Of a stretch of DNA of 44,977 nt, positions 6,595-43,800 are shown piece after piece. The DNA comes from Catajapyx aquilonaris (Eukaryota): the NCBI GenBank assembly GCA_000934665.2, contig JYFJ02003214.1:1-44977 (forward strand), given 5' to 3'. Each line of letters starts with the position of its first letter. Position 1 is the stretch's first letter. The notes beneath the pieces are model-generated. The model searched no databases and was not told the origin of the DNA. It worked only from the letters and a program-made list of their open reading frames with translations. A program made the position numbers and the translations under genes.

Positions 6595-6650
<56 letters not shown>
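6595..6650. repeat. (TC)n microsatellite; a shorter (AG)n lies at 8108-8127
   Basis: Read directly from the sequence. Confidence 0.97.
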
Positions 6651-6652
<2 letters not shown>

Positions 6653-7411: not shown

Positions 7412-8499
7412 CTGTAGGGCAGCGTGAATTTTGGTGCGATGGAAATGTTTTTGATGGACTGTCGCGACTGATGGAAATGAGCAGCTGGACACACACCATT
7501 CCGCATCCATGATACCGGGTATTGATACATTGCATTGATTTTTTTTTTCCTCTCACGTCTCGCTCGCGTTGGTCTGCCACCCAATGCATACAATGAAAAC
7601 TGAACCCTGTCCTGCTCAGATGCTGTCAAAAAATTCGGACGTATCGCGCATCTTTGCAGTTGCGCGATTTTATCACACATTTCTGCATATGTAGGCCAGG
7701 AATGAATTATTCGGACATGAAAAGTGTGTCGTCGGCATATGATGAAAACCAGTCCATTTAAATCAATTTGAGCCGGTTTCATACGCTCTTCCGGGTGTAC
7801 CATGTTTGCGAGTGAAATATTACTTGCTCGTAAATAATGAATGAAATCAGCCGTCTCGTCACATACACCAATGCCCAATGAGCACATCTGGCTGCTGGTC
7901 CCTATTTTCAATCCTCGGTGCCAAAAATGGGGGTTCCAACATATAGACATTATAGGTGTGTAATACTGGGCTCATTTACACGGCACCAAACTGGACTAGG
8001 TTCTAGCCCAGAAAACGCTCGACTGAAGCATCATCACGAAGGGAGTGGCGCTCAAATTACACCGCCATTAAATGGTGAAAAAGAGAGCTCTCCTGCTTTG
8101 CATTTTAGAGAGAGAGAGAGAGAGAGAAAAAAGCGCATCGAGAGCGGCTATTTCAAGCTTCGGACATGATAATAAAAGGCTCGATTGAACCCCCATAAGC
8201 GAGAATATTCCAAGCAGGAAACATCAATGCGCATCCCACCCTCTCTATTTTGCATATCGGCCGCTTTTTTGTGATGCTGAGACAATGGCGTCAAATGAAG
8301 GGATCGAGGGGCCAATAGTCGCTGACTATATGGAGATCCAGGTCTATATGATTTGCAGGGAATTGGTTCTAAAGCGCTTTATAATTATCCGAGTGTCCGC
8401 CTTTTCCAATTTTGACTCAACTGTCCACGTAGTACCATTACGCCTCATATAGATGGCGCGCTACTCCCACTCCGAGGGTAGTTCGAGAGGTCGTGGTAC

Positions 8500-8866
8500 T
8501 ATGAATATTTTAACGAACGCAACCGAGTGCGCACCCACATTCGCGCAGCTTCATTGTTCCGACAACAACGTTGCCAAAGTTACCCCCAGGACAGGTGCCA
8601 AATATTTTTATCGATAATTTGATTATTTAATTTTAGTCGATAGTGTTTCATACCCGTAGCCTTTCAGGTTTGTTCCAGAGCATTGGCAGCGTCGCAAACG
8701 TCGGCCATTTTGTTCACCCCAAAACGTAGCGTTGGAAATATAAGTGCGGAGCTTACTTACCAGGACACTCATTATACAGCGAGATTACCAGCTATCGTTG
8801 ATCATGCCAATTGCCAATCGTGCACGTTGCGCGAGCATAGGTGCGCAGTAGGTTGCGCACGTAACA
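8500..8866 (-). mobile_element. MITE family M1 copy
   Basis: cgcaaccgagtgcgcacc at the left end and gtgcgcagtaggttgcgcacg at the right end. Internal gtcggccattttgttc..cgtagcgttggaaat. Confidence 0.75.
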
Positions 8867-9602
8867 AGAGTGAACCAAAACTTGGCATAACTGTCGGAGT
8901 TGTACCATTTCTCTCACGTAGATGGCGCATTCTCCTCTGCACACTACTGGTACTCGGGGTAGTGGTGCTACATGCACCCAGGACAAACAGAGGCACAGAC
9001 TGAAGCCAATTCTATAACAGTTTGGCAGCGTCATCGTGTCCCGGAGCAAAGCCAATGGAATTTGGCCCAATCCCCCGCCTTTGTCTTGCTTTGCTGCCAA
9101 TGTTTCCGGCCAATTAGACCTAGGCCTATCCGCCCAATTTGCACACGTGGCAGGAGAGGATCAGAGTCTGTATTTGCTCTAGGCCTGAGACACATTCATC
9201 AGTGCTGGTGCATAGCCATGGGAGGCCTAAACTTTGAGGCCTAATCTGCCAGCGCCCGGATTAAAACCATTTGACAATCCTCCTGGGTTTGGCTCATTGC
9301 CCCTTCACTTTCTTCAAGCGTCATTAAGCAAATCGACTTCAACCCGACTTAGGCCCCTGTGACTTCAACCAGGTGTAAGAGTGTGGTACATTTCGCCTGC
9401 GAGTTTTCTCCACAAGCTCGACTCCCAAACGCCTTAGGTTGGGAATGATTCGCATGCATTATTTAAACCCCCATCCACACCGCCGGAGAACTGAATCGCA
9501 ATCGAAAAATTGCATGACTTTTCGAGCAGGCAGGATTCATAATTCATATTTTTTTTTGCAAAAAAACGAGCCATCTATTTTCAAACAGATTTTTAAATTA
9601 AA

Positions 9603-9655: not shown

Positions 9656-10236
9656 GCACTGTCAAAGGACGTTAGGAACTGTTTACTCGTATTGTTGTGT
9701 GAGGGAGCCAATAGGAAGTTACGTGGTAACAATATGCGGCAGACCAATAAGAGGCCTCGGTCGAGCAACCAAGTAGTTTAATATTACAGATTGATCGTAT
9801 TGTTTGTGGAAATTTCGAAGGGGAAAAATATTTTGGTAAGCAAGCTGCATAATCACCATGAGAGGACATGAAAGCCAGTGACGCTCTTTTGTCGTCGTCA
9901 TCGTCGACGGGTTTTTTTTCTGCCCGTTGTCTGTACCCATGTCGATATCAGGCGTTTCGTTGCATCGAGATGAGCTTCCAAAAAAAAAAATTGGCTTTTT
10001 CATCATCAGGCTGTGACAACCGGAGCTTTTTGATTGGGTTTGTACCGCCAGACCGTCGCTGATCACAACAATGGTGCCAACCAAAACATGCCTCCGAGGC
10101 ATTGTCACCATCAGGCCAGTGCAGGTTCGGTGCATCGTTGACAAGGGAAGCGCACTAAAAATAGGCCATGTCACTCGTGTTCATAAACACAATCACATTT
10201 GCACATTCTGGCCTCCAAGTGTCATAATAGTAACTA

Positions 10237-10930
10237 GAGATGAAATTGTTTTTTTTGCGAGGGAGTGCGCACCACAGTTCGCGCAACGTGCACGGTTGGC
10301 ATTATCAATAGTGGATGTACTGCCCGGCACGTATTTCCAAAGCTACGCTTGGGGAGAACCAAAATGACCGACGCGTTCACGGAGACGACTTATAGTTAGA
10401 TGAAATTTTTATGAGCGCAACCGAGTGCGCAACACAGTTCGCGCAGCGTGCACGGTTGGGATTATCAATACACTCTAAGAAATGTCCGGGTTAAACGTAT
10501 TTATCCCGGAAAAAAGATCACTTTTGTCATGGTTATTTAACCCGGACATTTCTTAGAGTGTTTACACTCTAAGAAATGTCCGGGTTAAATAACCATGACT
10601 AAGAAATGTCTTAGTCATTTAGTCATTTCTTAGTCATGGTTATTTAACCCGGACATTTGTTAGAGTGTATATACACTCTAAGAAATGTCCGGGTTAAATA
10701 ACCATGACAAAAGTGATCTTTTTTCCGGGATAAATACATTTAACCCGGACATTTCTTAGAGTGGAGGCTGTATATAATGAGTGTAACTTATCTTGGGAGG
10801 GGAAGAACAAAATGGCCGATGTTTGCTACGTTGCCAAAATTCTGGGGAGTGACTCTGGCAACGTTGTTGTCAGAACAATGGAGCTGCGCCAGTGTAGCTG
10901 CGCACTCGGTTGCGCTCGTTAAAAAAACAT
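10237..10930 (+). mobile_element. MITE family M1: partial copy (10237-10375) plus full copy (~10395-10930) split by the CACT trimer
   Basis: TIRs ttttatgagcgcaaccgagtgcgca / tgcgcactcggttgcgctcgttaaaa. Confidence 0.8.
10471..10763. mobile_element. Trimer of a 90-bp CACT..AGTG MITE (CACTA/CMC-like): 10471-10560, 10565-10667, 10674-10763
   Basis: The 25-bp TIR cactctaagaaatgtccgggttaaa occurs six times. Copy 3 is the reverse complement of copy 1. Confidence 0.9.
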
Positions 10931-13671
10931 ATGTCGAGCAAGGAAACCGACTTGCGGAAAATTGAAGCCCGCTTTTAGCACACGACAAGCCTGATTTAAC
11001 CGACATATTGCATCACCGGGTTATATGGCTTGGAACTAACGTGTGGAAGTGCAGATGTGCATACACAAGCAACAGCGCCCCCCTTTTGCCTTCCTTTGGC
11101 AAACTCATCTATTTTGCAGGGGTGCCAGTGATGCCCAGCACCTCCCGCTTAATTAATCTGCTGAAGCTGCAGACACGAGCTGCTCGTGTAGCTAAAGCTT
11201 GTTTCTTAGCGTGAAAGAGGACGCTTCTTAATTAATTGGAGGGGGGGCCAGACCAACCTTTTGTGCCCTCAGCTTCCCAGGATTTTGATAAGGACCATAG
11301 GATCGATCCAGGATCAAAGCCCCGACCTTCTTCTCCAACCTACCGTTCATCCTCGCAATTTTTTTGTCAGACCAGTTTTACTCAACCCCATGCTTAGTGC
11401 AAATCCTTGTTATTCGCCACAAAATAAGACCTCGATCTCAATTATTGAAGCCAAACCACGCGTTTCATAATTAAGCTCACGTTCGCATCGGAGGAAATGT
11501 TCCGGGCTTTAAAATATTTGCAACCGTGTCCCATGCGAATATTTGCATCCGCTGCAATATTTTTGCGTCTCTCCTCGCGATGTCCGATTGTGCATTTTGC
11601 AGTTTGCATCTGACACCGCGTAATTACACGTCGTTTCAATTACCCCCGTAACTCTAGATTTAAATGGAATGTTCGAATTTTCAATCGTTTTTTTTTTTTG
11701 CAAGTTTGGCCCACGCCCCTCTAAAAAAAAAGTGCATCGCGCCCCAAAATATTGTTGGTTGGATCGAAATAATCGTCGAAGCAGTGAGTAGAAGTAGTGC
11801 GAAACGACAGCGCCAACTGGAGCGCGGAATCGAATAATGGCCACGTTATTACTCAACCTCGCCATTGTTGCAAAACCGAAGAAAATTTACCGAGTGTTTC
11901 GTAACAATCAAAAAAAAACTGTAAATAAAAGGCCCGCTCATTCCCCCGGAATGCGACATGTTCGCGAATGAGAACTATAAATGACGCGTCTATATTAATT
12001 GTTATTAGATCCAGTCTGCACCAAATCCGCAAAAAAAATTGTGTAGATTTTTTTTCTTCCATCCCCAGCATAATTGGCCAGGCGAATTTTTGCGCTGGCA
12101 TGTATTCTGGGTCAGGAATGCAATTTTTTTTTTTGCGATGGAGCGAGGGGTGGTCCCGCGGATTCCTCTAGTTTTCCCGGATTAGCTGGCAGCACTGGCG
12201 GAGACTATCCGGGAGATTTGCAGTTTAATTATACGGAGCAGATTGTGTGGGTAGCTCGCCAACCGGAGTATAAGCTTGCCCCGGAAATGCACAATTTTTT
12301 GCAACTCTCGCCGATTCGCATATGCGGCCGACGCGATTTTTTTGCGAGTGAATATTGGCAACGTCAATCATAAAATGGCGAAAGCATGTCCTATACATTC
12401 TTCGTCCAATACTAATATTTGGCTCAATTAGGCAACAATATTCACCCGGAAACTTTATCTCCTTATATGCTGCACCTTCTCAGGATCCGGGAAACAATTT
12501 ATTAGGAATATAAGCCTTGTTAAACTTATTAGTTCGCAAACTGGAATCTCCTAATATTCCAGAAAGTTGTCGTGTAATTAAAACGCACTTGTTAGGCCTA
12601 CTTGTACTTTTTCCCAACTTCATGAAAGATTCGCACTCTTGACACGGAACAGTTTCAATTACACATCATCCGATGCCTTCTCTTCTGGAGCCATCAATTA
12701 GCAAAATAATTTCGGCGCAGATAGGTCTAATTGCGGCACTATCACGCGGCAGAGGAATTTCATCAATATTTCGCGACCATCCGAGCAAATAATTTCGTCA
12801 ACCCTGGGTTCAGATCGAATGTCGACATCCGAGGCCAGACTCTGTCCTCATCCGGTCCAGCATCCCCGTTTTGATGGTTGGTCCCTGCCATCACTCGAGT
12901 CAATCCTGGTGATGGCCAATCAATCACTGTGGAGATGACTTCCGTCGTCAAACTGCGGAAGCGACGATCGCTCTCTTTTTTTTTATGCGGCCAGCCCAGC
13001 AACAACCCCCCCGACCTCTTTATCGCAGTCTCACCAAACCATCCTATAACTACCCATCAATCAAAATCCAGGCGGTAAAACACCGCAATTTCCACAACTA
13101 TTTTTTGGGGGAGGCCGCCGATGCTCATTAGTCTGGAAATTGCAAAAGTTGGGGACATATTGATTGCACCTTTAATTTGAATAGTCTTTCTCTCTCTTCC
13201 AGATGACACAGGCTAACCGATCGTTTATCAAGCCTTGTTATTCCTGTTTGTTCCTCTTTGGCCAATGTCCCTCCCCACAAAAACCAGCCTTTCCTTTCAG
13301 ATCCAAGAGGGGAAAAAAAGCCTTTTCCTCTTTTCACCCGCCATCTTTTTCTGACCGCAAAGCCCTTTGATTCCAACTCGACACGATCTTTCTTCTTCCT
13401 TTACAGTTGCCTCCAAATCCAGAGAGTATAATCTCAACACACAAGTGCTTCTTCCTTCTACTCCTCTCCACACATGCTCCGCAGACGTAATATTCTCACG
13501 AAGATTACAGGCACCTAAGACATCCTCAGGTCCAGCCAGGCCCAAGTAGAGAACGATGTACAGTATACTATCAGTATCAGGGACATAAAGTTTGTGATTG
13601 TGACGCTAACTGATTATGACAAAGGAGGCTTAGCTACCAACTCTGTGCATTTTGAAAACTCTCGGCGAGGT

Positions 13672-15360: not shown

Positions 15361-15469
15361 TGCTCCTTGAAAGGTCTCCTGGCGCTCTCAGGTGAGCACC
15401 TCCTGCAAAACGCCCCGGCAGGCGATAAGAAAAGAACGTAGAGGTAGTGTCCGGTGGCTGGCCGGGTCG

Positions 15470-28600: not shown

Positions 28601-31600
28601 TCGCTTTGTCGCCAGAAATGTATAGGATAATGACATAATAGAATGAGACAGCCCCGAGGCGACGAGATTCACAATCGATGGTTGGAATGATAAAAAAAAT
28701 CGACGCTTATGGAAAAAAAAGTATGTATTGTCGAAGCACTCGATTTTTTTTCTGATCGTGGTCTAGCTTACTTGGCAATTTAATTACGGTATAATAACAC
28801 CGTGCTAAAGCCGGTGTCCAAATTGGGTCGTCTCCAAGCAGGATTAAACGGACCCCCTCTTGTCCCGCTTCAATTACCAAGCGCAATAACAGCCACTTGT
28901 GCATTACCATCAGGCGGAGAAGAGTGCTTCTCAAACTAAGCGCGTCCTTCAACAAAACGATCATAAGCTCCACTTCCTACCGTGATTTTGGAGTGTCCCG
29001 GATAGCTAATCTAAAATAGTTGTTCGGAGGCAGGCTTTACAAACTCGAGTACGGTAAATATCGTCGTGCTTAAAAATACTGGAGGACTGCATGAAGCTTG
29101 CGAGTAATTACGCTGCTTGAGCCGGGAACTACTGTAGCCAGCCTTATAGTGATGAAAGCGAACTATATAAGTACCTTGCCTCGCAGTCAGGGTAAAATGG
29201 AAGTCTTCCAACTTAGCTTTATGACTTATGTTTATGATCTACCGGCAGGGATGCTTACTGGGGAGTCTATCGGTTGGTTATGAACCTCCCTCTGAGAGGG
29301 GATGAGTGCAGAAGTTTGGCAATTCATTTTGCCGGCAGTGCAGACTCCCGAAGAGTCAATATGTGCTGGCACACTTTCCGGATCATCGCTTCCGGATTAA
29401 GCCAGCAAGAGAGGCGGCTTGTGCTCAGCAACTGAGACTATAAAGGCAACTCCAGCAATGTATATTACGCACATACTGAAAAATATGTAGGTTCAATATT
29501 ATTTGGTTTTAGAAGGCTTTTTTTTGTCAGGACGAGCGAGATGTCATCCCCTGAAGCCTTTGGTCCAGCCAAATGGGGAAATGGCCCGGAGAGATAAATT
29601 CGTGGAAAAGAGAGCACCGGACCAACTGTGGTGAATCCCCCTCCCATCCTCTGGATGACCACCTTCCCCAACCCTCAGTGCGCACTTAATGGAAGCAATT
29701 AACACCCTATGTTGGAAGGAAGCCGCTTCATCAGTTACTCCAGCTGCACTATTCCGAATAAATAAAAAATTAGCTAAACATTCGTTTCAATCTTCATTAA
29801 TAATGAGAGCAACAGAAAATATAGCTCACGTATATATGTTCATTAGTACGACCTTGCGGCCTCGTGACTTTCCTGTTTAGAATTCATGCTGCTTCTATTA
29901 GTAAAGTGGACTTGCAGAATGGTTTGCGAAATTGCCCCCGGGGCGACAAGTACTTTTCACGCATTTTATCACCCGGGTTGCCATATTTGAGCTTACATTG
30001 CGACTCGCACAATGAGGCTTAATTAATCGTTTATTATTCATACGCGAGGCTGTTATTATTTGAGCAGCTGCAGAGAGGAACACGGGGAAATTACAAAACC
30101 TTATTGTAGATGTGCCATATATTCAAAATGAGGTGAAAAATTCAGTCTCCAGTGCTAATAAAGAATGTTTAAAAAATTAGCACACTGTAGAAGTAACGTA
30201 AAATGCTCTAGAAATTTCGAGAGAATCTTTAACGTCCTTGAATGCAATTGACGGGTCAGCAGGATCCAAGTGCTTTTTGCAGGAGAATAAGAAGTAGAGT
30301 CATTCTAATCTGCGAATTGACGGAGCGCGAATCGCGTCCATAAATTTTGCAAACTTATGGACGGGCTTGGGGAAAGACCGTAAAAAAGAGAGAGGTCCAT
30401 ACATCACCGGGAAGTGGCTGCCATTCTGTGTAGAAACCTGATAGAAAAGTTGCAAAAAAAAGAGAGCGGCCATTGTAGTGTACAAATGCAGTTTGCAAAA
30501 AAAAAAGTGACAACATTCTCGACAAAAAAGGTACATTTTGGAATTAATGTCCTCGCAAATGTGCCGACATGTCTCGTTACAAAAGTGATGTTTCTGTCGA
30601 ATTTTGCAATTAAATTTATGAACGTATGAGTTAGCCACAAGAGGTAGAAAATGCGGCCAATATAAATGTTTGCATTTCGCGCAGTCCCAGAAAATGCGGA
30701 TAACTTGGTTGCAGTTTCCACTTGAAAACTGTAATTTCGCTCGCAAATATTTTGCAAATTTACAATTATTCCTCCCTCACTTTTCTGACTGCGTGCTGCA
30801 CAGAAGAATCAGCTTCCAATCTGCTTCATGAATAAGAATGGGGGGAAAGAAAAGGGTGTGAGGAGGAGAAGGAAGGAAAAGTTTTTGCCACCCCCCCTCT
30901 CTACCAAACCCAAATTCATTCCAAAAATCTTTTAAATCTCGAGGCAAAAGTTTCCAACCTGTTCTTAATGAGGTGATAAGGAAGGAGAGGAAAAGATGGG
31001 AGAAGAAAAGGGAGAGAGAAGTGAGGAAGCGAGAGAACAATGCTGTCAGAAATGAACGGGCAGCGAGTACAGGGTATGCCATAATGATTCAAGAATTCGG
31101 CACGGAATTCTAGGGTAAACTGATGGGAAATGATTCGTTATTACACAACCTGTACAGTACCAATTAGATAAGTCTCGAAGGTGTGTCATGTATGTTTACA
31201 TATAAAAAGTGACAGGAGGTACTGTACGTAATCCGTAAGTGCAGGTTCCATTTGCAAAAAAATCTAATAACGTATCCTGTAATACCATTTGTTCTTATTG
31301 GCTCCCTCTTTCCATAATACATCCCACTACAGTATATTCCTCTTCTGCTTTGCTTCGTAATTGAAAATATTTTCCAGAGAGACTATTTTTCCCTGCAGGC
31401 ATGGAATGTAGACATTTCCTGCACCGAGTCTCATTACAAATCAGCAAGGATGTATACTCAATTCATGTGGACTTCATAATTACAGTATATGCACAATGCG
31501 ACCCCATTTTTAAAAATGTGATAAGAACAACAATCATGCTTCTGCTCTGCTTGGAAGAGAGGCAAGGTGGGTTGAGATTAATCGAGACAAAGAGGATTCT

Positions 31601-32567
31601 TCATAAGAGGAGTAGGCTCCAGGCGGAAGATTCACAGCCCTTTGCTGTACATGCATTAATTTTGTCTCCTTGGCCCCTCCACCCAGACCTCCATACATTA
31701 TTTCCCCCCCTTGTACAGTCCCCCCAGTAAGGAAGAATTAATGCCAGGAGCAAAGGCATGCTTCATTTCCGGCGGGGAATAAATGGGATCGAGTCAGCCG
31801 GATTAAATAACGGCCTTCAGGCTGCCTCGTGTTCACGCAAAAGGCACAGATTAACTCGGATCTTTGAAACCCAGAGAAAGCAAACTACAAGTACACCCAA
31901 TTGACAATTATTTTGTACGTATTCTTCGGATCTTGAATTACTGGCTTCCTCGAGTCCAACAACCGCTGTTCTGGTTTTCCCAGGAGAATCGACTAATGAA
32001 TCCTTCGCCTCCGGAGTCGCTTTCCATTGCCGTCAGGGGAACACTTTCCGGGAAGTTGGAAAGAGGAGGAAGGACCTCCTCCTCCTCCTCTCCCCAGTAT
32101 ATAATACGCCCCGGAAATTCTTCCAACAATTTTACGAGGTCGTTACGGGATAGTTAATGCGCCGGTTCAGGGCAAGGTCTGGAAGCCATCATGCAGATAT
32201 GGGCAGGCAGCATACCCTTCGAGGGTCGATATTAACCGGGGCCAAATCCGGGGCCAAATATTTGTCACTAAAGGCTGCTCACTCTCTCAGAACACACGAT
32301 CTTTTCCATTTGGCAAATTCGATTGGATCCATCGCATTCAAGAGCGAACAAATAAAACTGGCCCGAAAGCGAGTCTGTTCATAAACCCCTGGGTAATTCA
32401 ACATGCTGCTCATTGTTGTCCGACGCCAATCACAACAACCGTTTGTGTGTGCAGAGCGAGGGAGGGCAATCAGAGAACAGTTGTCCCGCTTGCTTCGATA
32501 ATATTAATTAATTAAAATGAGAGGGACAAAGCTTTGATTACCCTTTTTTCTATTGTCAGGTGTCCCC

Positions 32568-32651
32568 ATGGACGACCTCACCGGTGATGGAGCCTTGATG
32601 TCGCCCCATTATTCCGCCCCAGGTGCGGCCCCCGGGCGCGGCAGCCCCTAG
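32568..32651 (+). promoter_or_regulatory. Upstream ORF (27 codons, MDDLTGDGALMSPHYSAPGAAPGRGSP*) in the dpr 5' leader, in frame with the main ATG
   Basis: ATG at 32568 in context cccATGG. TAG at 32649-32651, then gtc, then the main ATG at 32655. Confidence 0.6.
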
Positions 32652-32654
32652 GTC

Positions 32655-32769
32655 ATGCTGACCTCTGACCTCCCATCCCTCCTCCTCCTTTCCCTTCTTT
32701 TCCTCGCCACCCACCGTCAAGCAGCAGGAACTACAACCGCCACAGAAGCAGCAACAACAACAGAAGCCG
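32655..32769 (+). CDS. dpr: dpr coding exon 1 (signal peptide); exon probably starts at acceptor 32560, implying an upstream non-coding exon not located
   Basis: Acceptor cttttttctattgtcag ends at 32559. ATG at 32655 is followed by hydrophobic [10 protein letters not shown]. Phase-1 donor g|gttagt at 32769/32770 joins in frame to exon 2. Confidence 0.8.
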
Positions 32770-33543
32770 GTTAGTATTACATAATATTTTGTAATCAGCG
32801 GATCTACCTCTTAATGACCACTTCATGGCCCTAGTTGCCTGGGCTTCCCCAACAAAGCAGCACCTTTTCATCCGCTGAGCCGATAGAGTAACAAAGCGAC
32901 GAGCGAGGTTGGAAATGACGGAATATTCATGGGGGCGGGAGGGGTAGTAGTAATATAAATTTCCAAAGTGTAATGCGCATAAACGGAGACTAACATGAGC
33001 ATAATCCGTAGGGAGCGAGGCCTCCAATTGGCCCGCATTTAACCAGATAAAAATGCGCCAGCCTCGCAATCAAAAAGGGTAATCAGCAATTTCAAGCACG
33101 CAATAAGCCAGCTTTTTTTTCCAGGGAGGGAAGCAGGCAACATCAACGTGCATCCTTTTCATGTCTCAACTCTCTTTTTGCCACGCGACATTATGTGAAC
33201 TCCGATTAAAAAGGCGGAGCTATAAAAAGGGGCCTATCGCGGACCAATAGACACGAATAACGACTGTAAAAGAACTTTTTGATAAGAAATGGAGTCAGTC
33301 TTTGACTCCTTAACCTTTGCTTCGATTCATATGAAATCAGTCGCTATTTCAATGGACTGTTGCTATAATATTACCGAGTGCGCACCCACCCTCGCGCAGC
33401 TCCATCGCAATGTCAGAACTGTCGGCCATTTTGTCACCCCCTCCTCCTTATGCGTAGCGTTGGAAACGGTTGGAAATAAGTGCTATCATTATTAGAATTA
33501 TTATTAGAATTATTATTAGAATTATTATTAGAATGCTTAACTA

Positions 33544-33603
<60 letters not shown>

Positions 33604-36600
33604 GAATTATTATTAGAATTATTATTAGAATGCTTAACTATAACCGAGTACGTATAGCCACACACGAGCAATGTTGCCAGAGTTACTCACGAGCCAAAAT
33701 ATTCGCACCAGTAGCATCTAAGGTTAGTCTTGGCAACGTCGGTCCTTTTCCAAGCGTGTAGCGTTGGAAATAAGTGCAGTGCAGTACACCTACTATACAA
33801 AGAGCTTACCAACTGTCATTGATAATGACAGTCGTGCAAGCTGCGCAAACTGTGGTGCGCACTCGGTCTCGCTATAGTTTTTTTTTAAAAATCAAGTACA
33901 GAGTAGTTCTACAACATGTGTCGTGCATGAGGGATTTGATCAACATGCGAGCAGGGCTTTTCCTCTTCCATGTCCCTTGCTCGGGTTACTCGGGTTGCTG
34001 GGCACACACAGCTAGAGCAAAGCCAGGGGATTCTTCGCCCGACTTGCTGCCGACGGTTTCCTCCAATTAGGGTTAAGCCGTTAAGGCCCCCCCCCAAACC
34101 TTCCTCATTTGTGCAAGGGACTTGCTCTTGACCTGGCCTACAGATACATCCATCCATCCGTCCAAAGTTTTACTCCAGCTCCCTAATCTAGTCCCGGCAT
34201 CATTTAGCAAATTGATATCAAGGACTGCTCCAATCACACGCATGCAAACACCACTGGAGAAACTCATTCTAAGCCAGTGGAAATATAATTACGGGCGACT
34301 TACGGATTTCATACGAGTCAGGATGGAGCTTGAATTGAATGGTTGCAGGAAAGAATCTGGGTCCCGCCATTGTCTCTTTTTTCGGGGGGACAGACTGGAA
34401 AATTGCCCCTTTTTTTCATCCCGGACTGGAATCTGACCTGGAGTCCGGTCCATTGTTCCTCCTTCCCCATTGCACAGGGGCTTCATTTTTCATCGGGGTT
34501 GAAAGGTGCACTTTTAGCTAGCATACCTCCAATGCAGGTCCAGCAGAGATGACTGCCGCGTATGGAGCGCAAGGGGACTGAAGGAGATTAAAACTTTTAA
34601 AGCCCTGCTTTCCAAAAAAAAAAGGGGGGGGGGGGCAATCTGTCTAAAAGTTTGCTCTACTCCCGTGATTAGGAGACTGAATGAGAGAGGGCCTTTCCTC
34701 AAATTACTTGCTTCAAAATTGCTGCTTTGCTTCGTGTAATGATGACACAACCCATTTTGGTCACGTAGGGTGTCATTACAGCTCCATTAATTGTCATTGA
34801 GGAACAACATGCATTTCGTTTGCATGCGATGAGCTTGTCACAAAATAGGAAATAAAACGACCCTATCGTCAATTGTTAACGTTTTTTTCCCCTCCACTTC
34901 CCCTCCCTGGTTTGTTGTCCCCACTTCCATTTGTTTCCTGTCCAGCTAAAGTCACTCGACCCATTTGTCTTCCTGAAGCTAGACACTTATAAAAAAGAGA
35001 TCCGGACTACCCCTTAGCTCCTCCCCTCCTTAATCCCTTTTCCAAGCGGATTCGTGGCCATTTTAATTTTTTATCGCTGTCTGTGCCAGGCTAAAAAAAA
35101 AACTCGTTCCGACATCCACTGCATTTATGCTTTCATTCATACTTCGTCAATCCTCCTAATCTCTCTTCCAGACTTTTATATATATAAAAAGCTGGAGGGG
35201 TTTAGTGCAGGAAGAGGACTTTCTGCCGTCTCTAATATGGATTTACTTCCCCGCACATGTCCATTTTAATATTTTATGCCTGGCCAGAAAAGGTTCGCGA
35301 ACGAGGATTGGGACCGTAAAAAAGCAGTCTTAAATTGCGTGGATTCCTATTTTGGTCAGAACCTGTCTGAATATAACTCACCCTGCAGGTGAGGTCGGGC
35401 AAGAAGCCTCGGATCAATGCAGCGGACAGAAGAAAAGAGTCGTTCGAATATTTATTGTTAAACTGTGTACTGTAATTGCAATAATTTCAGAGAGTACGAC
35501 GCATGGGCAGCTGATGATCACTCGGGAATTGGGCACGACAAGCAGCGATGTATCAACCCTGCCAACAACGTCGAGGCCAAGTGGTGTGGAAGAGAAGGAG
35601 AAGGAAAAGGAGGCCGCCCCGGGGCCGCCCCTGCACCATTATCACCAAGGCCCTCGCTACGGACCGTACTTCGAGGACGGCTCATCCTCTTCCAACGTCA
35701 CAGTTCGAGTCGGTGCCACGGTCCTCTTGGACTGTCGAATCGGGATGCTGCACGACAAAACAGTACGCAGTATTTTTCTTCTTAATTGGTATAAAAGGTT
35801 ATTTGAATCGTTACGAAACCTTACCTATCCTGACAGGGTCTCGGACTTTTCGCCCCCGCCGTTTCGCCCCCGTGACATATTCGTCGTGGTGGGCAAAGCC
35901 ACAATAACGTTAGTTGGCCTGCGGCGCCACAAGACGGACAGTAAATGTTGCGGATACAGAAACCCACAATAAGCGCCCAGCTCCGCTTCCGCTCCGTAAA
36001 AACTTAAAATATCACGCACGGGCGACGTACCGTGCCTGGCAGGGCCACAGGAATGGACAGTACTGTTGCGGTAACCAAAAAAAAAAACATAGAGCATCAC
36101 CAACACAAAGCGCACCTCCATCCCTGTGACCCAAGCAGAAGACCGCAAAATATTTTATAAATCAGGCATATTCATGGCTCGAGAAATGCCCAGTCGAATG
36201 CTTCAAAGTGGAATATGTCACGGGGGCGAAATTGTCACGAGGGCCAATATGCCGGGGGCTAAAAGACCGGGGATGAAACGGCGGGGGCGAAAGGTCCGAG
36301 ACCCTGTCAGGATAGGTTATGCGGTTTCGTAACGGCGGGGCGAAAAGTCCGGATCCCATTCCAACATAATATGTTGGAATGGGATCCGGACTTTTCGCCC
36401 CGCCGCGCCGTTTCATCCCCGGTCTTTTAGCCCCCGGCATATTGGCCCCCGTGACATATTCCACTTTGAAGCATATACATATACGAATTTGCTCTGAATG
36501 TGATCAGTACAGCGTGAAAGCTGCTTTTTAAAAGGGGGGGCAGAGAGAGATGTTCCTGGTGTCGTTGGGCTCACCCCATTCCGGGCCAGTTCCCCCATTA

Positions 36601-39600
36601 ATATGAGGCCCGCATAATTGGGAGCCGGCGCACACTACCCGGAACGCAACTTTTTGTGTGTGTATGTGTCCGGATCCTCTTTCCCGGATTAACGGCCAGG
36701 AGGCCATACCGTTGCAGTTTCATTATACGGGAGGTTGGTGGCCGAGCTACAGGCAGTGTTGCAACCCAAGGGCGGCCCATGGTCTGACTTTCAAGTCAGG
36801 ACCTAACTCTGAAGCCCCACTAATTTGAACGCAAATTAGTATAGAGTTAAACTTATTTCGCAAATAAAATGCATTATTCGCAAAAGTTACTCGCTTCTCG
36901 GAATCTTCTCAACTTACTGCATAGCATAATTAGAGAGCTCCAGCTCACCTTAAGCCTAGTCTCTATTAGAAGTAGGCAAGGGAAACTCTTGGCCAAGTTT
37001 TCTTGTCAATTAATAATGACGAATGAGGCAAGTGCGATTTGAAGTTTATCATCTCAAGTCCGACTCGAATCTAGAGTATCTGCGCTGTTTCCTATTTAAA
37101 TTTATTTAGTCGCGATATGTGCCTGCGTAATGGAATCTTTTCTATTAATCTTTGTTCAGAGAGAGTAATTGACACCGGGAGGCAGGTGTGAGTTCCTTTC
37201 CATTTCCCAAAACCCCAAAAGTAGGACCGCGGATCGAGTTAAGGAAGATGAGCCCTCGTTACTGCTCATTTGCTTTCGCTTCACCACTTTCCAGGTACGC
37301 AAACTTTATTCTGGCCCAAAATTATTGCACTCGTTTACCCAGCATCGGGAGTTGGGGAGGAGTTGGGCCGAGGAATTTAAACCAATTTGGGAATTCATGT
37401 TGAAACACCCCCCCCCCCTACCAGAACTACTGGCTTGTTACTAACCGACTCTTGTTTTAAAGCAGACGAAAACACAGTTTTCCGCCTTTTCTCTTTAAAA
37501 TCGCAATTAGCCAATAACGGCCATTCAATCCGATGCAGCCGGAGGGATATTGCGGCAATGCATGTTACAAAAAAAGGCGCGATTGCACAGCACCGCATTC
37601 GACATTAATTACATTACGTTGTGTTTACTCCACGATCATTTTACAGCAGTACAGTGCTGGACATTTATGGTGTCGTACTTGTCGCGCCACGAGCCGATGG
37701 CGGAAAAACAGCGAAATATTCAAAGTTGCCTCGGTACGACCGCTTCACTCGATTTATGATCCTGTGAAGGAAGTCATACGGAGAGCAAATTTCGATTCGC
37801 TCTTTTGACGAGGCGCAACCAGTACGACACCATCAATGTCCAGCACTTGTAGGCTACAACGAGTAGCCCTCAAGCCGTACCCTGATTGTTATTTTTCCGC
37901 AGGTTTCTTGGCTCCGTCGTCGGACTGAGGATGGAGACGGTGCCCTCGACCTTCTGACCTTTGGCAGACAGACCTACAGCAGCGACCAGAGAGTGTCCCT
38001 CTCCTTCAGGTACCCTGGAAACTGGCGTCTCTCCATCAGGTTCGCCAACAGGAGGGACGAGGGACACTACCTCTGTCAGATCTCCACCCACCCACCCACA
38101 GCACACATCGTCTACTTGAGGGTCACGGGTCAGTATTTAGTGCGCATGACCTGCCCTGAAACACATTGGGTGTGCAGCCCAGCAGTAAACAGCTTTGCGC
38201 TGAGGATGTCTCCTGAAGTAGTTTATGTCGAGCGAGCCCCTTTTTCATTCCTGTGGGTCGCCTCAGGAAGAGATTTGTTCCCGCTTCTCCCCATATCTCT
38301 TCCTAGTCACTCCCAAAAACCAGCTTTTCCTTTCAACCCCGGAAGGAGAAGGACCAGCCTCCCTCTTCCCCCTCGACGTCCTCCTTTTTTCCCCCTGACC
38401 GCAAAGCCCTTTGATTCCTGCGAGACACGATCCTTCTTGGCCTAATCCTCCTCTCCCCGAGTATCATCTCAACACACAAGTGCTTTTTCCTCCTACTCCA
38501 CTCCGCAGCCTCCGTTTCTCACGCGGATTACACACCAAAAGACATACTTAGGTCCATCCAAGCAAACTAAGGGGACATTCGCACTAAAAAAAAAAAGAGA
38601 GAGAGAAAAAGCACTTGGAAAAAGCAGCGGATAAAATCGAATCCATTCCTGACCTTGTCCGCTTGCAAACTTTGGCAACTTCGTAGATTGCTGTACGGGC
38701 GCAACAGAGTGCGCATCCACACTCGCGCAGCTCCATTGTTCTGACATCAACGTTGCCAGAGTTACTCCCTGGGGGCCAATAATTCACACTGCGGATGAAC
38801 TTTTTATGAGCGCAATCGAATGCGCGACACAGTTCGAGCAACTTGCATGGTTGGAATTATTAGCTGGTATGCATAGCAAGTGTACTGGTAAACTTATTTA
38901 CATCACTACGATTGAGGGGGTAACAATATGGCCGACTTCTGCGACGTTCCCGAAGCATGGCTACCTGTGTGAATTTGGCCCATGAAGAGTAAACTGTGGC
39001 AACGTTGTTGCTAGAACATTGGATATGCGCGAGTATGGGTGCGCACTCGCGTCAGTTGAGCTTTGAAGTTTGTTGCAGAGCTTTGGCAATGTCGCAAACG
39101 TCAGCCATTTTGTTTCCTCCTCAAGTGTGACGTTGGAAATAAGAGAAGCCCAGCACATCCACCAGAGAGCTTACCAGAATAATTGTTAATGCCAACCGTA
39201 CATGCTGCGCGAACTGTGGTGCGCACACTGCTGTTAAAGAATTTATGTATCATGATGCACTTTTTTTTCCACGCCAGCTCCAGAGCTGCGAGTGGTGGAC
39301 GAGCAGGGTCAGGTGGTGTCGGAGAGATACTACAAGGCTGGGTCAAGGGTCGAGCTGACCTGCCAGGCCTCGGAGCCATCTCCAGACGCCTCTCCCACCT
39401 GGCACCTGCAGGACCACGCCATCACTCCGAACAACTACTGGAGGGAAGGGGCCAGGTAGTTCTGATCTCTAAATTAGACGCTGCATCCATTGTTGCTCAT
39501 TGTTGCAAATATTTGCAGCGTGGATGGGAACGAGACGGTGGCCTTCCTCCGACTGGACGAGGCCAGAAGAGAGGACTCGGCCAACTACACCTGTCTGCTG

Positions 39601-39979
39601 GGGACCATGGCCAAGGCAGGGGTGGCCCTGCACGTGCTCAACGGTACATTCTCATTGTTGTATTAATTGAGGCAGTGCTGGTGACGTCGCTTTAATTTCA
39701 GGCGAGCTTCCAGCGGCGGCTCAGCAAGAGGACGCGTTGAACCGCGCGTCGCCGCGTCTGAGGTCCAGCTCTCCGACTGTTGTGGTCTTGGCCGCCTTGG
39801 CCGTCGTGGCCATGGCCACCGCCTGCCCCGGTGACAGTGACCACCCTGGAGGACTAGTTCCACTCCTGACCCACGACCCAGCTGCCCCAGACACGCAGCG
39901 CAACAATCTGTGTTCAACAATAAAGCGTGAAATGGCGAGTATACTGGAACACGACTATTCATTTCCAGTAAAGAGGTGA
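32655..39979 (+). CDS. dpr: Dpr-family (defective proboscis extension response / ZIG-8-like) 2-Ig cell-surface protein, 6 coding exons: join(32655-32769,35491-35762,37903-38128,39278-39455,39519-39643,39702-39979), 1194 nt, 397 aa
   Basis: All five introns are GT..AG with compatible phases (1,0,1,2,1). Translation gives a signal peptide ([25 protein letters not shown]) and a T/S-rich stalk. Ig1 reads [87 protein letters not shown]. Ig2 reads [49 protein letters not shown], followed by a hydrophobic segment. These motifs match my recollection of the Drosophila dpr14/dpr18/dpr20 subgroup; exact ortholog not resolved. Confidence 0.93.
33372..33872 (-). mobile_element. MITE family M1 copy or copies in dpr intron 1, hosting an expanded ATT microsatellite
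   Basis: accgagtgcgcacccaccctcgcgcagctcca..gtcggccattttg..gcgtagcgttggaaa. Right end gtggtgcgcactcggtc. Confidence 0.75.
33488..33641. repeat. Compound (ATT)n / (ATTATTATTAGA)n microsatellite with duplicated gaatgcttaactat
   Basis: Read directly from the sequence. Confidence 0.95.
35491..35762 (+). CDS. dpr: dpr coding exon 2 (stalk and first half of Ig1)
   Basis: Acceptor ataatttcag. Encodes ..[30 protein letters not shown]. Phase-0 donor aca|gtacgc. Confidence 0.92.
35809..36472. mobile_element. Rearranged M3 cluster in dpr intron 2: element 35809-36334 with extended inverted ends, plus inverted partial copy 36381-36472
   Basis: cgttacgaaacc..acctatcctgacagggtctcggac pairs with gtccgagaccctgtcaggataggt..ggtttcgtaacg. 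A perfect palindrome spans 36333-36405. Confidence 0.82.
37903..38128 (+). CDS. dpr: dpr coding exon 3 (second half of Ig1)
   Basis: Acceptor atttttccgcag. Encodes [38 protein letters not shown]. Donor g|gtcagt. Confidence 0.95.
38660..39235. mobile_element. Cluster of M1 fragments in both orientations in dpr intron 3
   Basis: gagtgcgcatccacactcgcgcagctccattgttctgac (38708), ttttatgagcgcaatcgaatgcgc (38802), tggcaacgttgttgctagaacattgga (38997), cagccattttgtttc..gttggaaataag (39102). Confidence 0.75.
39278..39455 (+). CDS. dpr: dpr coding exon 4 (Ig2 N-half)
   Basis: Acceptor ttttttttccacgccag. Encodes [36 protein letters not shown]. Phase-2 donor ag|gtagtt. Confidence 0.93.
39519..39643 (+). 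CDS. dpr: dpr coding exon 5 (Ig2 C-half)
   Basis: Follows a 63-nt intron ending atttgcag. Encodes [35 protein letters not shown]. Donor g|gtacat. Confidence 0.93.
39702..39979 (+). CDS. dpr: dpr coding exon 6 (GELPAA linker, hydrophobic anchor segment, tail)
   Basis: Follows a 58-nt intron ending tttaatttcag. GELPAAAQ matches the Dpr NGExPAAMQ motif, then [16 protein letters not shown], then TGA at 39977-39979. The true 3' end is uncertain (see findings). Confidence 0.8.
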
Positions 39980-42900
39980 CAAAATATTACCCGCTTTTTA
40001 ATACGACAAACATTTGCCTATATTCTATTTATTATGCAATTACTCGTTATTGGGGCTAAAAATTAAGTTAATCGGTCCAACGCGTTAAATATTTTTTCGC
40101 ATTAAAAAAAGGTGTATGGAAAAGTTAACAAATACGCCCCTGCTAATTACCCGCTGCATCAAAGAGCGTCGGTAATAATCAGGGTGTTAATTATTCTATC
40201 GGCACCGTGAGACTGCTGACACGAGTTTCATCGATACAGGCACGTGTATGATTAACTTTAATTGGGATTAATGCGTCATCGTGATGATATATGAGGGGTA
40301 TAGCTGCCAACATGTTGCAGCATGTGTAAGAGAGGATTACTCGCGTGTTTCAAATGGTATAACAAGAGTCGACCTCTTTCGAAGATAATTATATTAAATT
40401 TACGCCAAAATATTAATTTTCATTTTACATATTTTCATCCACTCTTTTACTATCCAAGTCCTTCGATGAGATTCCAGCAGATTCGTTACAAAAAGTGTAA
40501 CAAGCAGCGTGCTAAAAAAAATCCGCGTTAATTGGCCTAACGCCTTTAGACATTAACCAATAATTCCTATAGGAAATTGCCTGCCACTTTCTTCCCAACA
40601 ATCAGAAACCAACCCAACACTTTCTCCGAGGCTTGTTGTCCGGAGAGTGGTCATTGGGAAACCTCGCAGGTGGGCCAGCCAAAATCTTTAGAAAAGAATC
40701 TCGGGGGCTAAGAGGAAGGAAAAGGGGGAAAGGTTAAGTGGGTAATTAGAGTTCAATCGACGTGTACTGGATCGATACGCGCTTCCAAGACTAATCCGAT
40801 CGGTTTCTTTCCCGACACGTTCGTTTTCTTGCGATCAGTTTGAAGAGATCCCCGCACCTGCTGGCTCCAACATATAATTACTTTTATCCAACAAGTAAGC
40901 CAACTGATGTAGCCTCAAATGTGATTGTTTCCATTTTTAAGCAGATGTCGCACTGTGTACATAAAAGTCATATTTTCTTCCCCCGCCAACTTTTTCCCTC
41001 CCTTCCTTCTCCCAACATAATTTCCATAATCCTGGAAAAGCAGTGTGGCGAAAGCTTCATGTCGGACAGATCCCAGGCACAGAAAAGCCTCCTCCTTCCC
41101 CCAACTCTGAATATCATTTCAATCTCATTTCGCTTCCCAACAAAACCGCTTGCTCGACACCAACTGCGTCCTAATGAAATTCAGGCTCCTTATACACACA
41201 CACCCAACCAGCCACAACAATATTATGGGGCCCTTTCTTAGCCATTTTTTTTTTTTTTTGTCCAGAAAAAGGACCTGCATTGGCCTACTTTTCTTGGACA
41301 AAACACTCGCCAGATGATGTGATGTTCCGCTCCCTTAAAATGGTTCGCCTCATTTCTTCATGTCCTGGAGGAATGAGCTGGTCCAATTTGTACCTCCTAA
41401 TTCGGCCCATTCGACCCATAAATAGACTGCGATGGTCATCAGTGGTGTTGACCACCACTTGGAAGTCCAGGAGGACTCGTAATTTGACTACACCTGCGCT
41501 TATTTTTGTTACACACACACTAGACTATAATTAGGCCAGTTGGGGACCTTCCTTTTTTTTAGGCGAAAACAACCGCACTCCAATTTGCATGCAAAAACAG
41601 GGCACTCAGCACTGGACAAGAGCAGATTGCTTGCTTCATAAACCCTTCTTGCCCGGTGGATATTTACGTGTGAATGAAGCTGTTGCATGTAAACAATGCA
41701 ATTGGCATTAGGCAACAGAGTCGCAATTTGCGAATATTACGCATGTTACAATCGCGATCATTTTTCTGACATTGCAGTATATAGATTTTTAAATTAGGCC
41801 AGAAAAATTCCCAGGCACTCTTCCGTAATATAAGTCATTTTTGCGTGAAAAATTAGCACGGGGGAAAGTCTCATTACGCGAAGGAAACAATTCCTGCGGC
41901 ACAAATTTTTTTTGCGCGACATTTTGCAGCTTTATGGGCTTTGATCTTCATTCATTTCCCCCCTCCCCTTTTCCAAAATTGCGTAGAAAAGGTATACTTA
42001 CGCCTCCGTGGATGAATACATTTTAATTAGAGCTGGGCGCCAGCACTCTATCCTCGCGACATTAATTTCAGGCTGTAAATTACTTTGCGAATCGCTGCAA
42101 AACCCATCGTAACATTCGAGCAATTTGTAGCCACCTCCCTTTCTTGCCAAAAGGACCAGTGTTGTTTGCGCCACAGAGTTAATCAACTCGCAATTAATGC
42201 GGAGTATTTTTTGCAAGCCATTTGTCAGGCTCGAATTACACGTAGTCGTATTAATGTACTGCCGAGCTCGGTTCCATCTTTCAACTTTTGCAATGAAAAT
42301 GTGGAGAGAGTTGGAAATAAAGAAGGGCTATAGTAATATGTCAAAATGTAATTTTTTTTCTCTCTCTAGAATATACACGTAACTATTGGTGCCAACTTCT
42401 TTCTCACTGGATGGTAATGAGATTTCCCCATCCTTTGGCATAATTAATCCCATCCAGGCGGGAGATAATTAATCTGGTATGCTCGGGTGCACATGACGGA
42501 GTCTGCCTCTCAAGACGGATTAGACGCAAACGCTCTTGCCAAAATCTTGGTCACTTTCTTCGTGTCTAAATTCTTTCAGGGCTTACAATAGCGACGTGTT
42601 CATTCCCCGTGAAAAATAATTTTCAAGCAAGGCTCGAGAACATTGCACCGTCGCGTCGGACATACAGTACAGCAGACATGTACACGACATTTACGCGAGT
42701 GTGACCAGCAGACTCAGATTGAAAAGTGGGTCACCGCACCCGAATGAAAAAGCCATTAAAATTTTTGGACGTGGCTTCCATGTGGTCCGAACTGATTTCA
42801 TGAATAATTCGCGGTTGATTACTCTATATTTACTCGCCATTCCACGTTGCCAATGTGAAATTAAGGCGTGACAAAATTATTTGGGTATATTAGAAGATGA

Positions 42901-43644: not shown

Positions 43645-43800
43645 CCCTGTAATGCCCCTTGGGTCATATCTGGCACACCATTTAGTGCAATTTGGCACAC
43701 TTACAGAAAATATAAAAATTGCAAAAGTTGAAAAAATTGCACTAAATGGTGTGGCAGATATGACGCAGTGGGCATTACTTAGATTAGTGGCATTACAGGG
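43645..43800. mobile_element. piggyBac-like MITE with TTAA target duplication
   Basis: TTAA-CCCTGTAATGCC ... GGCATTACAGGG-TTAA. Inner arms gtcatatctg.cacaccatttagtgcaattt also pair. The right end is partly duplicated. Confidence 0.88.

What the first reader, a model, noticed from the sequence alone, without database searches (positions are those of the whole stretch)
32461..40270. Inverted conservation: A/B similarity stops just before dpr exons and resumes just after them
Around exon 1, similarity ends at ~32515 (vs ~6900), about 45 nt before the acceptor, and resumes at 32813 (vs 7877), 44 nt after the donor. Before exon 2 the last match is ~35349-35388 (vs 11359-11395). After exon 3 it resumes at 38161 (vs 13155), 33 nt after the donor. 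Exons 4-6 fall in the gap 38570 to ~40100, opposite 13550 to ~17300. Paralogs normally keep exons and lose intron similarity, and neutral decay of a pseudogene should leave exons at least as alignable as introns. The reverse pattern implies selection or homogenisation acting on the non-coding blocks in both copies (inference).
Basis: partly seen in the sequence, partly recalled or inferred. Interest (0 to 1): 0.8.

Follow-up and report, generated by a model that had tools for sequence, protein, structure and literature searches.

The report
Decayed upstream duplicate of Dpr gene
An expressed two-immunoglobulin (Dpr-type) gene has an old, exon-less partial copy about 25 kb upstream that keeps only three clear non-coding blocks of similarity; this looks like ordinary decay of a dead duplicate, not a proven case of selection on introns.

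Summary
Partly confirmed, modest interest. A six-exon Dpr-family gene lies at 32560-39977 (+). It is expressed and spliced.

Region A is truly homologous to it, in the same order and orientation. Only three blocks are solid:
- 30892-31071 ~ 1242-1408
- 32997-34156 ~ 8026-9202, which includes a SINE-like copy
- 38275-38611 ~ 13238-13590

Everything else is at trace level.

No exon has a convincing remnant in A. The best tblastn E-value is 0.08. The only hint is a 75-nt trace of exon 3 that sits exactly on the diagonal (P = 0.03).

The matches at 32515, 35349-35388, 38161 and 40100 are at chance level. The solid blocks start or end 154 to about 1490 nt from exon borders.

At least half of the non-repeat intron sequence is just as unalignable as the exons. 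Exon avoidance by placement alone gives P = 0.11-0.12.

The blocks are no better conserved than neutral SINE pairs (74-80% of aligned columns). Selection is therefore not required.

Gene conversion, or constraint on the intron-3 block, cannot be excluded. That block has an exact 24-mer and is single-copy.

The parts
32560..32769 (+). Exon 1 of the Dpr-family gene (main ATG at 32655; a 27-codon upstream ORF at 32568-32651)
   Evidence: Splice sites and reading frame read. An RNA-like contig (X5 record 17) starts matching at 32559, and its first 200 nt lie outside 30000-44977.
35389..35762 (+). Exon 2 (low-complexity N-terminal part plus the first half of Ig1)
   Evidence: This acceptor keeps the frame open. 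There is no counterpart in A: DNA P = 0.88 (whole exon) and 0.20 (Ig part); tblastn best E = 0.082, elsewhere in the window.
37903..38128 (+). Exon 3 (second half of Ig1)
   Evidence: phmmer against PDB: Dpr6 5eo9_A E = 1.5e-10; also Dpr10, Dpr2, Dpr1 and ZIG-8. X5 record 20 starts at 37903.
39278..39977 (+). Exons 4 (39278-39455), 5 (39519-39643) and 6 (39702-39977, stop): Ig2 and a hydrophobic tail
   Evidence: X5 record 22 joins 39292-39452, 39516-39642 and 39701-39886. Weak Pfam Ig hits.
30892..31071 (+). Solid homology block i (B side); partner A 1242-1408, offset 29650
   Evidence: nhmmer E = 8.7e-9. blastn 70% over 121 nt. Depth about 33-36x, so single-copy at 80% likeness or above. Alignment A2.
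1242..1408 (+). Block i, A side
32997..34156 (+). Solid homology block ii (B side, intron 1): unique flanks 32997-33253 and 34014-34156 around a SINE-like copy at 33373-33872 that holds an (AAT)n microsatellite
   Evidence: nhmmer 33102-33429~8194-8578 (E = 1.8e-7) and 33702-34155~8647-9201 (E = 1e-17). Flank-only queries give E = 4.9e-4 and 8.7e-4, both at offset 24971.
8026..9202 (+). Block ii, A side (SINE-like copy at about 8501-8868)
38275..38611 (+). Solid homology block iii (B side, intron 3): the strongest A/B match, starting 146 nt after the exon 3 donor
   Evidence: blastn E = 3.5e-32. nhmmer E = 4.4e-27. 244 matches, 78 mismatches, 46 gap columns; longest exact run 24 nt, P = 0.002. 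Lies in a unique contig of depth about 33x. Non-coding in all six frames. No Rfam hit.
13238..13590 (+). Block iii, A side; followed at 13670-14040 by a foldback element
12941..13007 (+). Possible remnant of the 5' end of exon 3 in A (matches B 37913-37987)
   Evidence: 49 of 75 columns, offset 24972. P = 0.031 against 863 real segments. Second-best blastn hit of exon 3, E = 1.4. The global alignment of the whole exon region is not significant.
36593..37210 (+). Trace-level islands in intron 2 (36593-36741~12063-12250; 36849-37210~12409-12776)
   Evidence: Best hits of their tiles over both strands of A. Banded z up to 10.7. blastn top hit E = 0.08. NOT recovered by nhmmer at E <= 10.
34764..34871 (+). 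Trace-level island in intron 1 (~A 9905-10005)
   Evidence: Banded z 3.7-4.8. SW 69 of 98 aligned columns. nhmmer E = 2.1 on the diagonal.
41885..42318 (+). Downstream matches: 41885-42151~A 18490-18768 (offset about 23400) and 42054-42318~A 17291-17572 (offset 24763)
   Evidence: 0 of 818 and 0 of 843 real segments score as high. Not recovered by nhmmer at E <= 10.
35809..36491 (.). Very high-copy foldback or MITE-like repeats in intron 2, B-specific within the duplicated span (relatives at A 22385-22634)
   Evidence: Self-blast. Summed contig depth 14100-18245 against a baseline near 30.
38695..39272 (.). Cluster of SINE-like family-1 copies in inverted orientation, ending 5 nt before the exon 4 acceptor
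   Evidence: Depth 1220-2667.
10224..10924 (.). A-specific repeat cluster (family-1 copies plus foldback 10468-10763) inside the stretch opposite exon 2

Best explanation
Region A is an old local duplicate of the Dpr-gene locus, about 25 kb upstream on the same strand. Homology is solid over B 32997-38611 and probably extends to 30892-42318. Copy A is dead. It has no open exons, no Ig signal and no recognisable coding sequence.

Both copies then took up repeats (SINE-like elements, foldbacks) and indels. Most sequence, exon-equivalent and intron alike, fell below the level where it can be aligned. Three blocks and a few traces survive.

The survivors are about as diverged as neutral repeat copies, so no selection needs to be invoked. 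The exons appear to sit in gaps mainly because the gaps make up most of the locus.

Shown: the homology, its extent, the absence of exons in A, the divergence level and the repeat content. Inferred: that the patchiness comes from decay and turnover rather than from selection or gene conversion.
For: Colinear homology
- 8 of 69 tiles fall on one diagonal.
- 4 of 5 B-side island queries have their best non-self blastn hit on that diagonal, against 0 of 28 pieces outside the span.
- nhmmer finds blocks i-iii, and both SINE flanks sit at the identical offset 24971.

Copy A is non-coding
- tblastn best E is 0.08 or worse for all 6 exons.
- Pfam: 0 Ig hits in 38 of 38 plus-strand ORF pieces of A 10920-13240, and nothing meaningful in the 25 longest ORFs tested. 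By the same method exon 3 of B hits V-set at E = 8.7e-4.

No excess conservation
- Aligned-column identity is 0.76 for block iii and 0.75 for block i, against 0.74-0.80 for SINE pairs.
- The SINE lies inside block ii.

Exon avoidance is not significant: P = 0.118 and 0.114.

The possible exon 3 trace has the same identity as the blocks (49 of 67 aligned bases).

Normal paralogs exist elsewhere. Extra contigs at 80% likeness or above lie over exons 2, 3 and 5 but not over the introns.
Against: Divergence is clearly uneven.
- The 4126 nt between blocks ii and iii in B faces 4052 nt in A. After removing known repeats this is about 3250 vs 3350 nt. It is almost unalignable, with only traces on the diagonal. 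Random deletion and insertion turnover would not be expected to keep lengths this equal.
- If the SINE-calibrated divergence held everywhere, the exons of A should be about 75-80% identical to B and easy to find. They are not.
- Block iii has clustered exact runs of 24 and 20 nt (P = 0.002).
- The colinear SINE pair is no closer than unrelated pairs: identity 0.66 against a range of 0.63-0.75, and 3 private shared bases against 0-4. Its age relative to the duplication is therefore not fixed.
Confidence: 0.5

Rival explanations
1. Younger patches from gene conversion. The duplication is much older than the blocks look. Exons and most intron sequence of A decayed in place. Later, conversion between A and B refreshed a few tracts. 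Tracts that would have overwritten B's working exons with pseudogene sequence were removed by selection, so only non-exonic tracts survive.
For: - It explains solid blocks of one similar divergence level set in an almost unalignable background of equal length.
- It explains a SINE shared at the same position with homologous flanks, yet no closer than unrelated SINE pairs.
- It explains unrecognisable exons in A.
Against: - It needs at least three separate tracts of similar age.
- Conversion from B to A across exons would be harmless and should sometimes have restored exon similarity, which is not seen.
- No direct signature could be tested here (no outgroup; GC content of tracts not examined).
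- Exon avoidance itself is only P = 0.11.
Confidence: 0.2
2. Retained regulatory DNA. The blocks, above all 38275-38611 and 30892-31071, are cis-regulatory modules kept by selection in both copies. Copy A would persist as an exon-less array of duplicate (shadow) enhancers for the Dpr gene or a neighbour.
For: - Block iii is a mosaic of exact cores (24-mer, 20-mer, a stretch of about 45 of 49) separated by unalignable spacers with indels of 8, 8, 9 and 12 nt; run-length P = 0.002.
- It is single-copy at 80% likeness or above, non-coding and not an RNA family or a stable fold.
- Block i also has an exact 15-mer core.
- From recall, not tested: the 24-mer contains a CTTTGAT core like a TCF/Pangolin site.
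Against: - Overall identity equals that of neutral SINE pairs.
- A repeat pair showed the same run-length signal (P = 0.004), so that statistic is not specific.
- Block ii contains a SINE and is rich in indels.
- No cross-species or chromatin data could be reached.
Confidence: 0.2
3. No duplication. The shared pieces are independent insertions of old, low-copy repeat families that happen to lie in the same order.
For: - The window is dense with repeats: 15 of the 26 A/B HSPs are on the minus strand and many are multi-copy.
- Family-1 copies occur about once per 5 kb.
- B 41885-42318 matches two separate A sites.
Against: - Blocks ii and iii share their offset to within about 70 nt across 4.1 kb.
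- Both unique SINE flanks have identical offsets.
- The blocks lie in unique contigs at baseline depth.
- 0 of 28 control pieces hit the diagonal.
Confidence: 0.07

Closest known systems
Unprocessed (duplicated) pseudogene or degenerate segmental duplicate
   Same: A same-strand, colinear copy of a gene locus, introns included, lying near the parent. It has no intact coding capacity, and repeats were inserted after the duplication.
   Different: Typical unprocessed pseudogenes still show their exons, with frameshifts and stops, at least as clearly as their introns. Here only a doubtful 75-nt trace of one exon is left, while three non-coding blocks are clear.
Duplicated conserved non-coding elements near paralogous genes (CNE retention and loss after duplication; PMC1896008, of which I saw only the search listing and the start of the abstract) and shadow enhancers (recalled)
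   Same: Non-coding blocks shared by two duplicated loci. The strongest block has short exact cores like clustered binding sites.
   Different: Such elements are defined by conservation above neutral and across species. Here identity equals that of neutral SINE pairs, one block includes a SINE, and cross-species data are lacking. One copy has no gene left.
Gene-pseudogene conversion tracts (for example CYP21A2/CYP21A1P; recalled, not looked up)
   Same: Patches of higher similarity between a working gene and a nearby dead copy, with selection expected against tracts that damage exons.
   Different: The known cases are young and more than 90% identical. These patches are about 66-76% identical, and no conversion signature could be tested.
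Dpr / ZIG-8 family of two-Ig neuronal surface proteins (for the gene itself)
   Same: The exon 3 peptide matches Ig1 of Drosophila Dpr6, Dpr10, Dpr2 and Dpr1 and of C. elegans ZIG-8 (E = 1.5e-10 to 2.2e-8). Two Ig-coding halves, a hydrophobic N-terminus and a hydrophobic tail.
   Different: A long low-complexity N-terminal stretch is encoded by exon 2. Which Dpr subfamily it belongs to, and which organism it comes from, were not determined.

Membership tests
Dpr/ZIG-8 family (gene B) | Ig1 domain with Dpr-type sequence | tested here: met
   phmmer of the exon 3 peptide against PDB: Dpr6 E = 1.5e-10, Dpr10 4.3e-10, Dpr2 9.8e-9, Dpr1 1.7e-8, ZIG-8 2.2e-8. DIPs score weaker.
Dpr/ZIG-8 family (gene B) | Second Ig domain, signal peptide, C-terminal membrane anchor | tested here: inconclusive
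   Exons 4 and 5 give only sub-threshold Pfam Ig hits (E = 0.0018 to 0.085). The hydrophobic N-terminus and tail are seen in the translation but were not run through a predictor.
Unprocessed pseudogene / segmental duplicate (region A) | Colinear homology to the parent locus that includes intron sequence | tested here: met
Unprocessed pseudogene / segmental duplicate (region A) | Recognisable exon remnants carrying disabling changes | tested here: inconclusive
   Five of six exons show nothing. The 5' 75 nt of exon 3 is at P = 0.031 on the diagonal. There are no Ig hits in 38 ORF pieces.
Unprocessed pseudogene / segmental duplicate (region A) | Exon loss explained by a few large deletions | tested here: not met
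   Between anchors 34848-38274 (B) and 9989-13237 (A), non-repeat lengths are about 2549 and 2548 nt. The stretch between blocks ii and iii is 4126 vs 4052 nt.
Conserved non-coding elements / duplicated enhancers | Conservation above the neutral level | tested here: not met
   Aligned-column identity is 0.75-0.76 for blocks i and iii, against 0.74-0.80 for SINE pairs. Only the clustering of exact runs in block iii is unusual (P = 0.002), and a repeat pair shows the same (P = 0.004).
Conserved non-coding elements / duplicated enhancers | Conservation in other species; open chromatin or reporter activity | not testable with these tools
   No genome is held. There were 0 metagenome hits to the 24-mer and no earlier notes.
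Interspersed repeat (for blocks i-iii) | Many copies in the genome | tested here: not met
   Summed contig depth is 26-56 in their bins against a baseline near 30, and 640-18000 in the repeat bins. The blocks lie in unique contigs. Only copies at 80% likeness or above would have been seen.
Gene conversion tract | Tract markedly more similar than its surroundings | tested here: met
   Blocks give nhmmer E = 1e-17 to 4e-27; the surroundings give no hit at E < 1.
Gene conversion tract | Copies within a species group together against orthologues; GC-biased changes | not testable with these tools
   No outgroup sequence was available.

The most novel reading that the evidence does not exclude
After an old duplication of a Dpr locus, one copy lost every exon but kept a small set of non-coding modules in place and in order: the intron-3 block with its exact 24-mer, and the upstream block. 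These were held either by selection as duplicate enhancers of the surviving gene, or by conversion that selection allows only outside exons. That would be an 'exon-less paralog' living on as regulatory DNA.
Probability: 0.2. Interest if true: 0.6.

Novelty: new member of a known kind. Interest (0 to 1): 0.3.

Why it matters
If the blocks proved to be constrained, this would be a compact, testable example of regulatory DNA outliving the coding part of a duplicated neuronal-recognition gene. As the evidence stands, it is an ordinary decayed duplicate in a repeat-rich genome. Its main value is cautionary. By-eye anchors of 30-40 nt next to exons were at chance level. Exons sitting in gaps is expected when at least half of the non-repeat sequence is gap.

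Tried and rejected
- A whole-genome search was not possible: no genome is held.
- Earlier notes: none.
- Rfam at gathering threshold: 0 hits. tRNA scan: 0.
- RNA folds of the core of block iii, both strands and both copies: z from -1.6 to +0.7, so no structure signal.
- The bacterial promoter and terminator scan does not apply to this eukaryote-type locus and gave nothing.
- Six-frame comparison of block iii: all frames match equally and copy A has stops, so it is not coding.
- Exact 24-mer in metagenome contigs: 0 hits.
- Global alignment of the exon 3 region: 182 against shuffles of 150 +/- 23, not significant.
- Diagonal-sum statistics with both the repeats and block iii masked were only marginal (137 against a null maximum of 131; tile counts no higher than the controls). 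The weak islands therefore rest mainly on top-hit placement.
- Island 35202-35289 maps into a repeat copy in A (10278-10358) and was set aside as doubtful, though it was still counted as island in the permutations.
- nhmmer did not recover the intron-2 islands or the downstream matches.
- No RNA holder was listed among the runs. X5 is of unknown kind and only behaves like RNA contigs.


Full report
THE GENE

Reading the sequence and testing splice combinations gives a six-exon gene on the plus strand:
- exon 1: 32560-32769 (ATG at 32655)
- exon 2: 35389-35762
- exon 3: 37903-38128
- exon 4: 39278-39455
- exon 5: 39519-39643
- exon 6: 39702-39977

The exon 3 peptide matches the first Ig domain of Drosophila Dpr6 (E = 1.5e-10), Dpr10, Dpr2 and Dpr1, and of C. 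elegans ZIG-8. Per-exon Pfam hits are weak Ig matches.

Contigs of the coded run X5 behave like RNA. One joins 39292-39452, 39516-39642 and 39701-39886. One begins at 37903. One ends on 32559-32669, with 200 further letters that lie outside 30000-44977. The gene is therefore expressed, spliced as modelled for exons 4-6, and has at least one more 5' exon upstream.

Extra DNA contigs at 80% likeness or above lie over parts of exons 2, 3 and 5 but not over the introns. Ordinary close paralogs, or alleles, therefore exist elsewhere.

IS THERE AN A/B SIMILARITY?

A first blastn of 24001-44977 against 1-24000 gave 26 HSPs at E < 1e-3, 15 of them on the minus strand. Most belong to multi-copy repeats found in both orientations. 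The self-comparison maps them:
- a SINE-like family: B 33373-33872 and 38695-39272; A 4739-4989, 5300-5385, 8501-8868, 10224-10503 and 10797-10924
- foldback elements: 35809-36491 with A 22385-22634; 6983-7357, 13670-14040 and 20436-20823; and others

Read laying confirms them as high-copy. Summed contig depth is 640-18000 in those bins against a baseline near 30.

Beyond the repeats there is real colinear homology.
- Of 69 300-nt tiles searched against both strands of A, 8 have their best plus-strand hit at offsets 24440-25055. All lie in 33001-38700.
- Of five B-side island queries searched against the whole window, four have their best non-self hit on that diagonal. Of 28 control pieces outside the span, none does.
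- nhmmer, an independent method, finds 30892-31071~1242-1408 (E = 8.7e-9), 33102-33429~8194-8578 (1.8e-7), 33702-34155~8647-9201 (1e-17) and 38282-38576~13254-13554 (4.4e-27).
- Queries limited to the unique flanks of the SINE copy each hit once, at E = 4.9e-4 and 8.7e-4. Both hits are at offset 24971.

This gives three solid blocks. There are also traces at 34764-34871, 36593-37210 and 41885-42318. These are significant by Smith-Waterman against real-sequence nulls, or by their placement, but nhmmer does not recover them.

Tested directly, the number of 200 shuffles scoring at least as high was:
- 32515/6900: 63 of 200
- 38161/13155: 96 of 200
- 40100/17300: 87 of 200
- 35349-35388/11359-11395: 24 of 37 matches, 8 of 200 in a very small search space, and about 900 nt off the diagonal
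- 32813/7877: 15 of 200

Solid similarity begins 228 nt after the exon 1 donor (32997) and ends 1233 nt before exon 2 (34156). It begins again 146-154 nt after the exon 3 donor (38275-38282) and ends about 670-700 nt before exon 4. The sharp edges next to the exons are not real.

EXONS IN A

- tblastn of each exon's own translation finds nothing better than E = 0.08, and nothing colinear.
- DNA tests against the intervals where the exons should lie give P = 0.88 for exon 2, 0.20 for its Ig part, and 0.56 and 0.24 for exon 1.
- None of 38 plus-strand ORF pieces of A 10920-13240 hits an Ig family.
- The 25 longest ORFs tested (19 of them in A) hit nothing meaningful.
- The exception is a trace: B 37913-37987 against A 12941-13007, 49 of 75 columns, offset 24972. 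That is the offset of the SINE flanks to within 1 nt. P = 0.031 against 863 real segments. The rest of exon 3 does not align.

Large deletions do not explain the absence. Between blocks ii and iii, B has 4126 nt and A has 4052 nt. After subtracting the repeats recognisable in the window, the two sides still match.

IS THE PATTERN MORE THAN CHANCE?

In 32926-38611 the islands cover 44% of non-repeat intron sequence and 75 of 600 exon bases. Circular shifts of the island mask give P = 0.118. Extended to 42318 and exons 2-6, islands cover 29% of non-repeat sequence and P = 0.114.

The expectation that exons should survive better than introns makes the deficit somewhat more notable. My rough binomial estimates, which depend on the assumed survival rate in A, range from about 0.02 to 0.3. 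These are inference, not a tool result.

ARE THE BLOCKS SELECTED?

Aligned-column identity is 0.76 for block iii and 0.75 for block i. Four SINE pairs in the window give 0.74-0.80. Block ii contains a SINE copy with homologous unique flanks.

The colinear SINE pair is no closer than unrelated pairs: 0.66 against 0.63-0.75, and 3 private shared bases against 0-4.

Block iii does show clustered exact runs, with a 24-mer found only at 38395 and 13351; run-length P = 0.002. A repeat pair gives P = 0.004 on the same test. Block iii is non-coding, matches no RNA family and has no stable fold.

Nothing therefore requires selection. What does need explaining is the unevenness: clear blocks on either side of an almost unalignable centre of conserved length.

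READING

Most likely (0.5) this is an old local duplicate whose upstream copy died and decayed. Repeat insertion and indels erased most of the alignable sequence, and the exons lie in the large erased part.

Later gene conversion that is tolerated only outside exons (0.2), and constraint on the blocks as duplicate regulatory modules (0.2), both fit the unevenness and cannot be separated here. Independent repeat insertions are unlikely (0.07), given the identical offsets and single-copy depth.

The kind of thing is known. The literature on retention and loss of conserved non-coding elements between paralogs is represented by PMC1896008, of which I saw only the search listing and the start of the abstract. 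Other comparisons are from recall.

Noticed in passing
window 32568-32651: Exon 1 carries a 27-codon upstream ORF (ATG at 32568, stop ending at 32651) just before the main ATG at 32655. Read from the sequence.
   Followed up: no
window 35809-36491 and 22385-22634: A foldback or MITE-like family of very high copy number. Summed contig depth is 14100-18245 in bin 35500-35999 against a baseline near 30. It has internal inverted repeats, for example 36333-36405 at 98.6%.
   Followed up: partly
window 13670-14040, 20436-20823, 6983-7357: A third foldback family. The copy at 13673-14025 is 94% identical to 20457-20813 in inverted orientation, which suggests fairly recent activity. One copy sits about 80 nt after the A side of block iii.
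   Followed up: no
window 33373-33872; 38695-39272; A 4739-4989, 8501-8868, 10224-10924: A SINE-like family with an A-rich tail, seen in the loose-end consensus of canonical copies. The B 33373 copy is split by an (AAT)n microsatellite at 33434-33637. The 38695-39272 cluster ends 5 nt before the exon 4 acceptor.
   Followed up: partly
window 3933-4686: A 754-nt near-perfect palindrome (arms 75% complementary) in region A. There is a single N at 3773.
   Followed up: no
window 1-272: A tandem repeat with a period of 144 nt (1-128 against 145-272, 94%) at the very start of the window.
   Followed up: no
window 35690-35726, 38016-38019, 39544-39552: Additional DNA contigs at 80% likeness or above, each at about single-copy depth, carry variant letters over exons 2, 3 and 5. 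These point to close Dpr paralogs or divergent alleles elsewhere in the genome.
   Followed up: no
window 41885-42318 vs 17291-17572 and 18490-18768: One B stretch downstream of the gene matches two separate A sites: 0 of 818 and 0 of 843 real segments score as high. The two A sites barely match each other (score 97). This could be a rearrangement or an old low-copy repeat.
   Followed up: partly
window 37653-37847 and 43649-43778: Two more foldback repeats with raised depth (about 860 and about 8400-11000).
   Followed up: no
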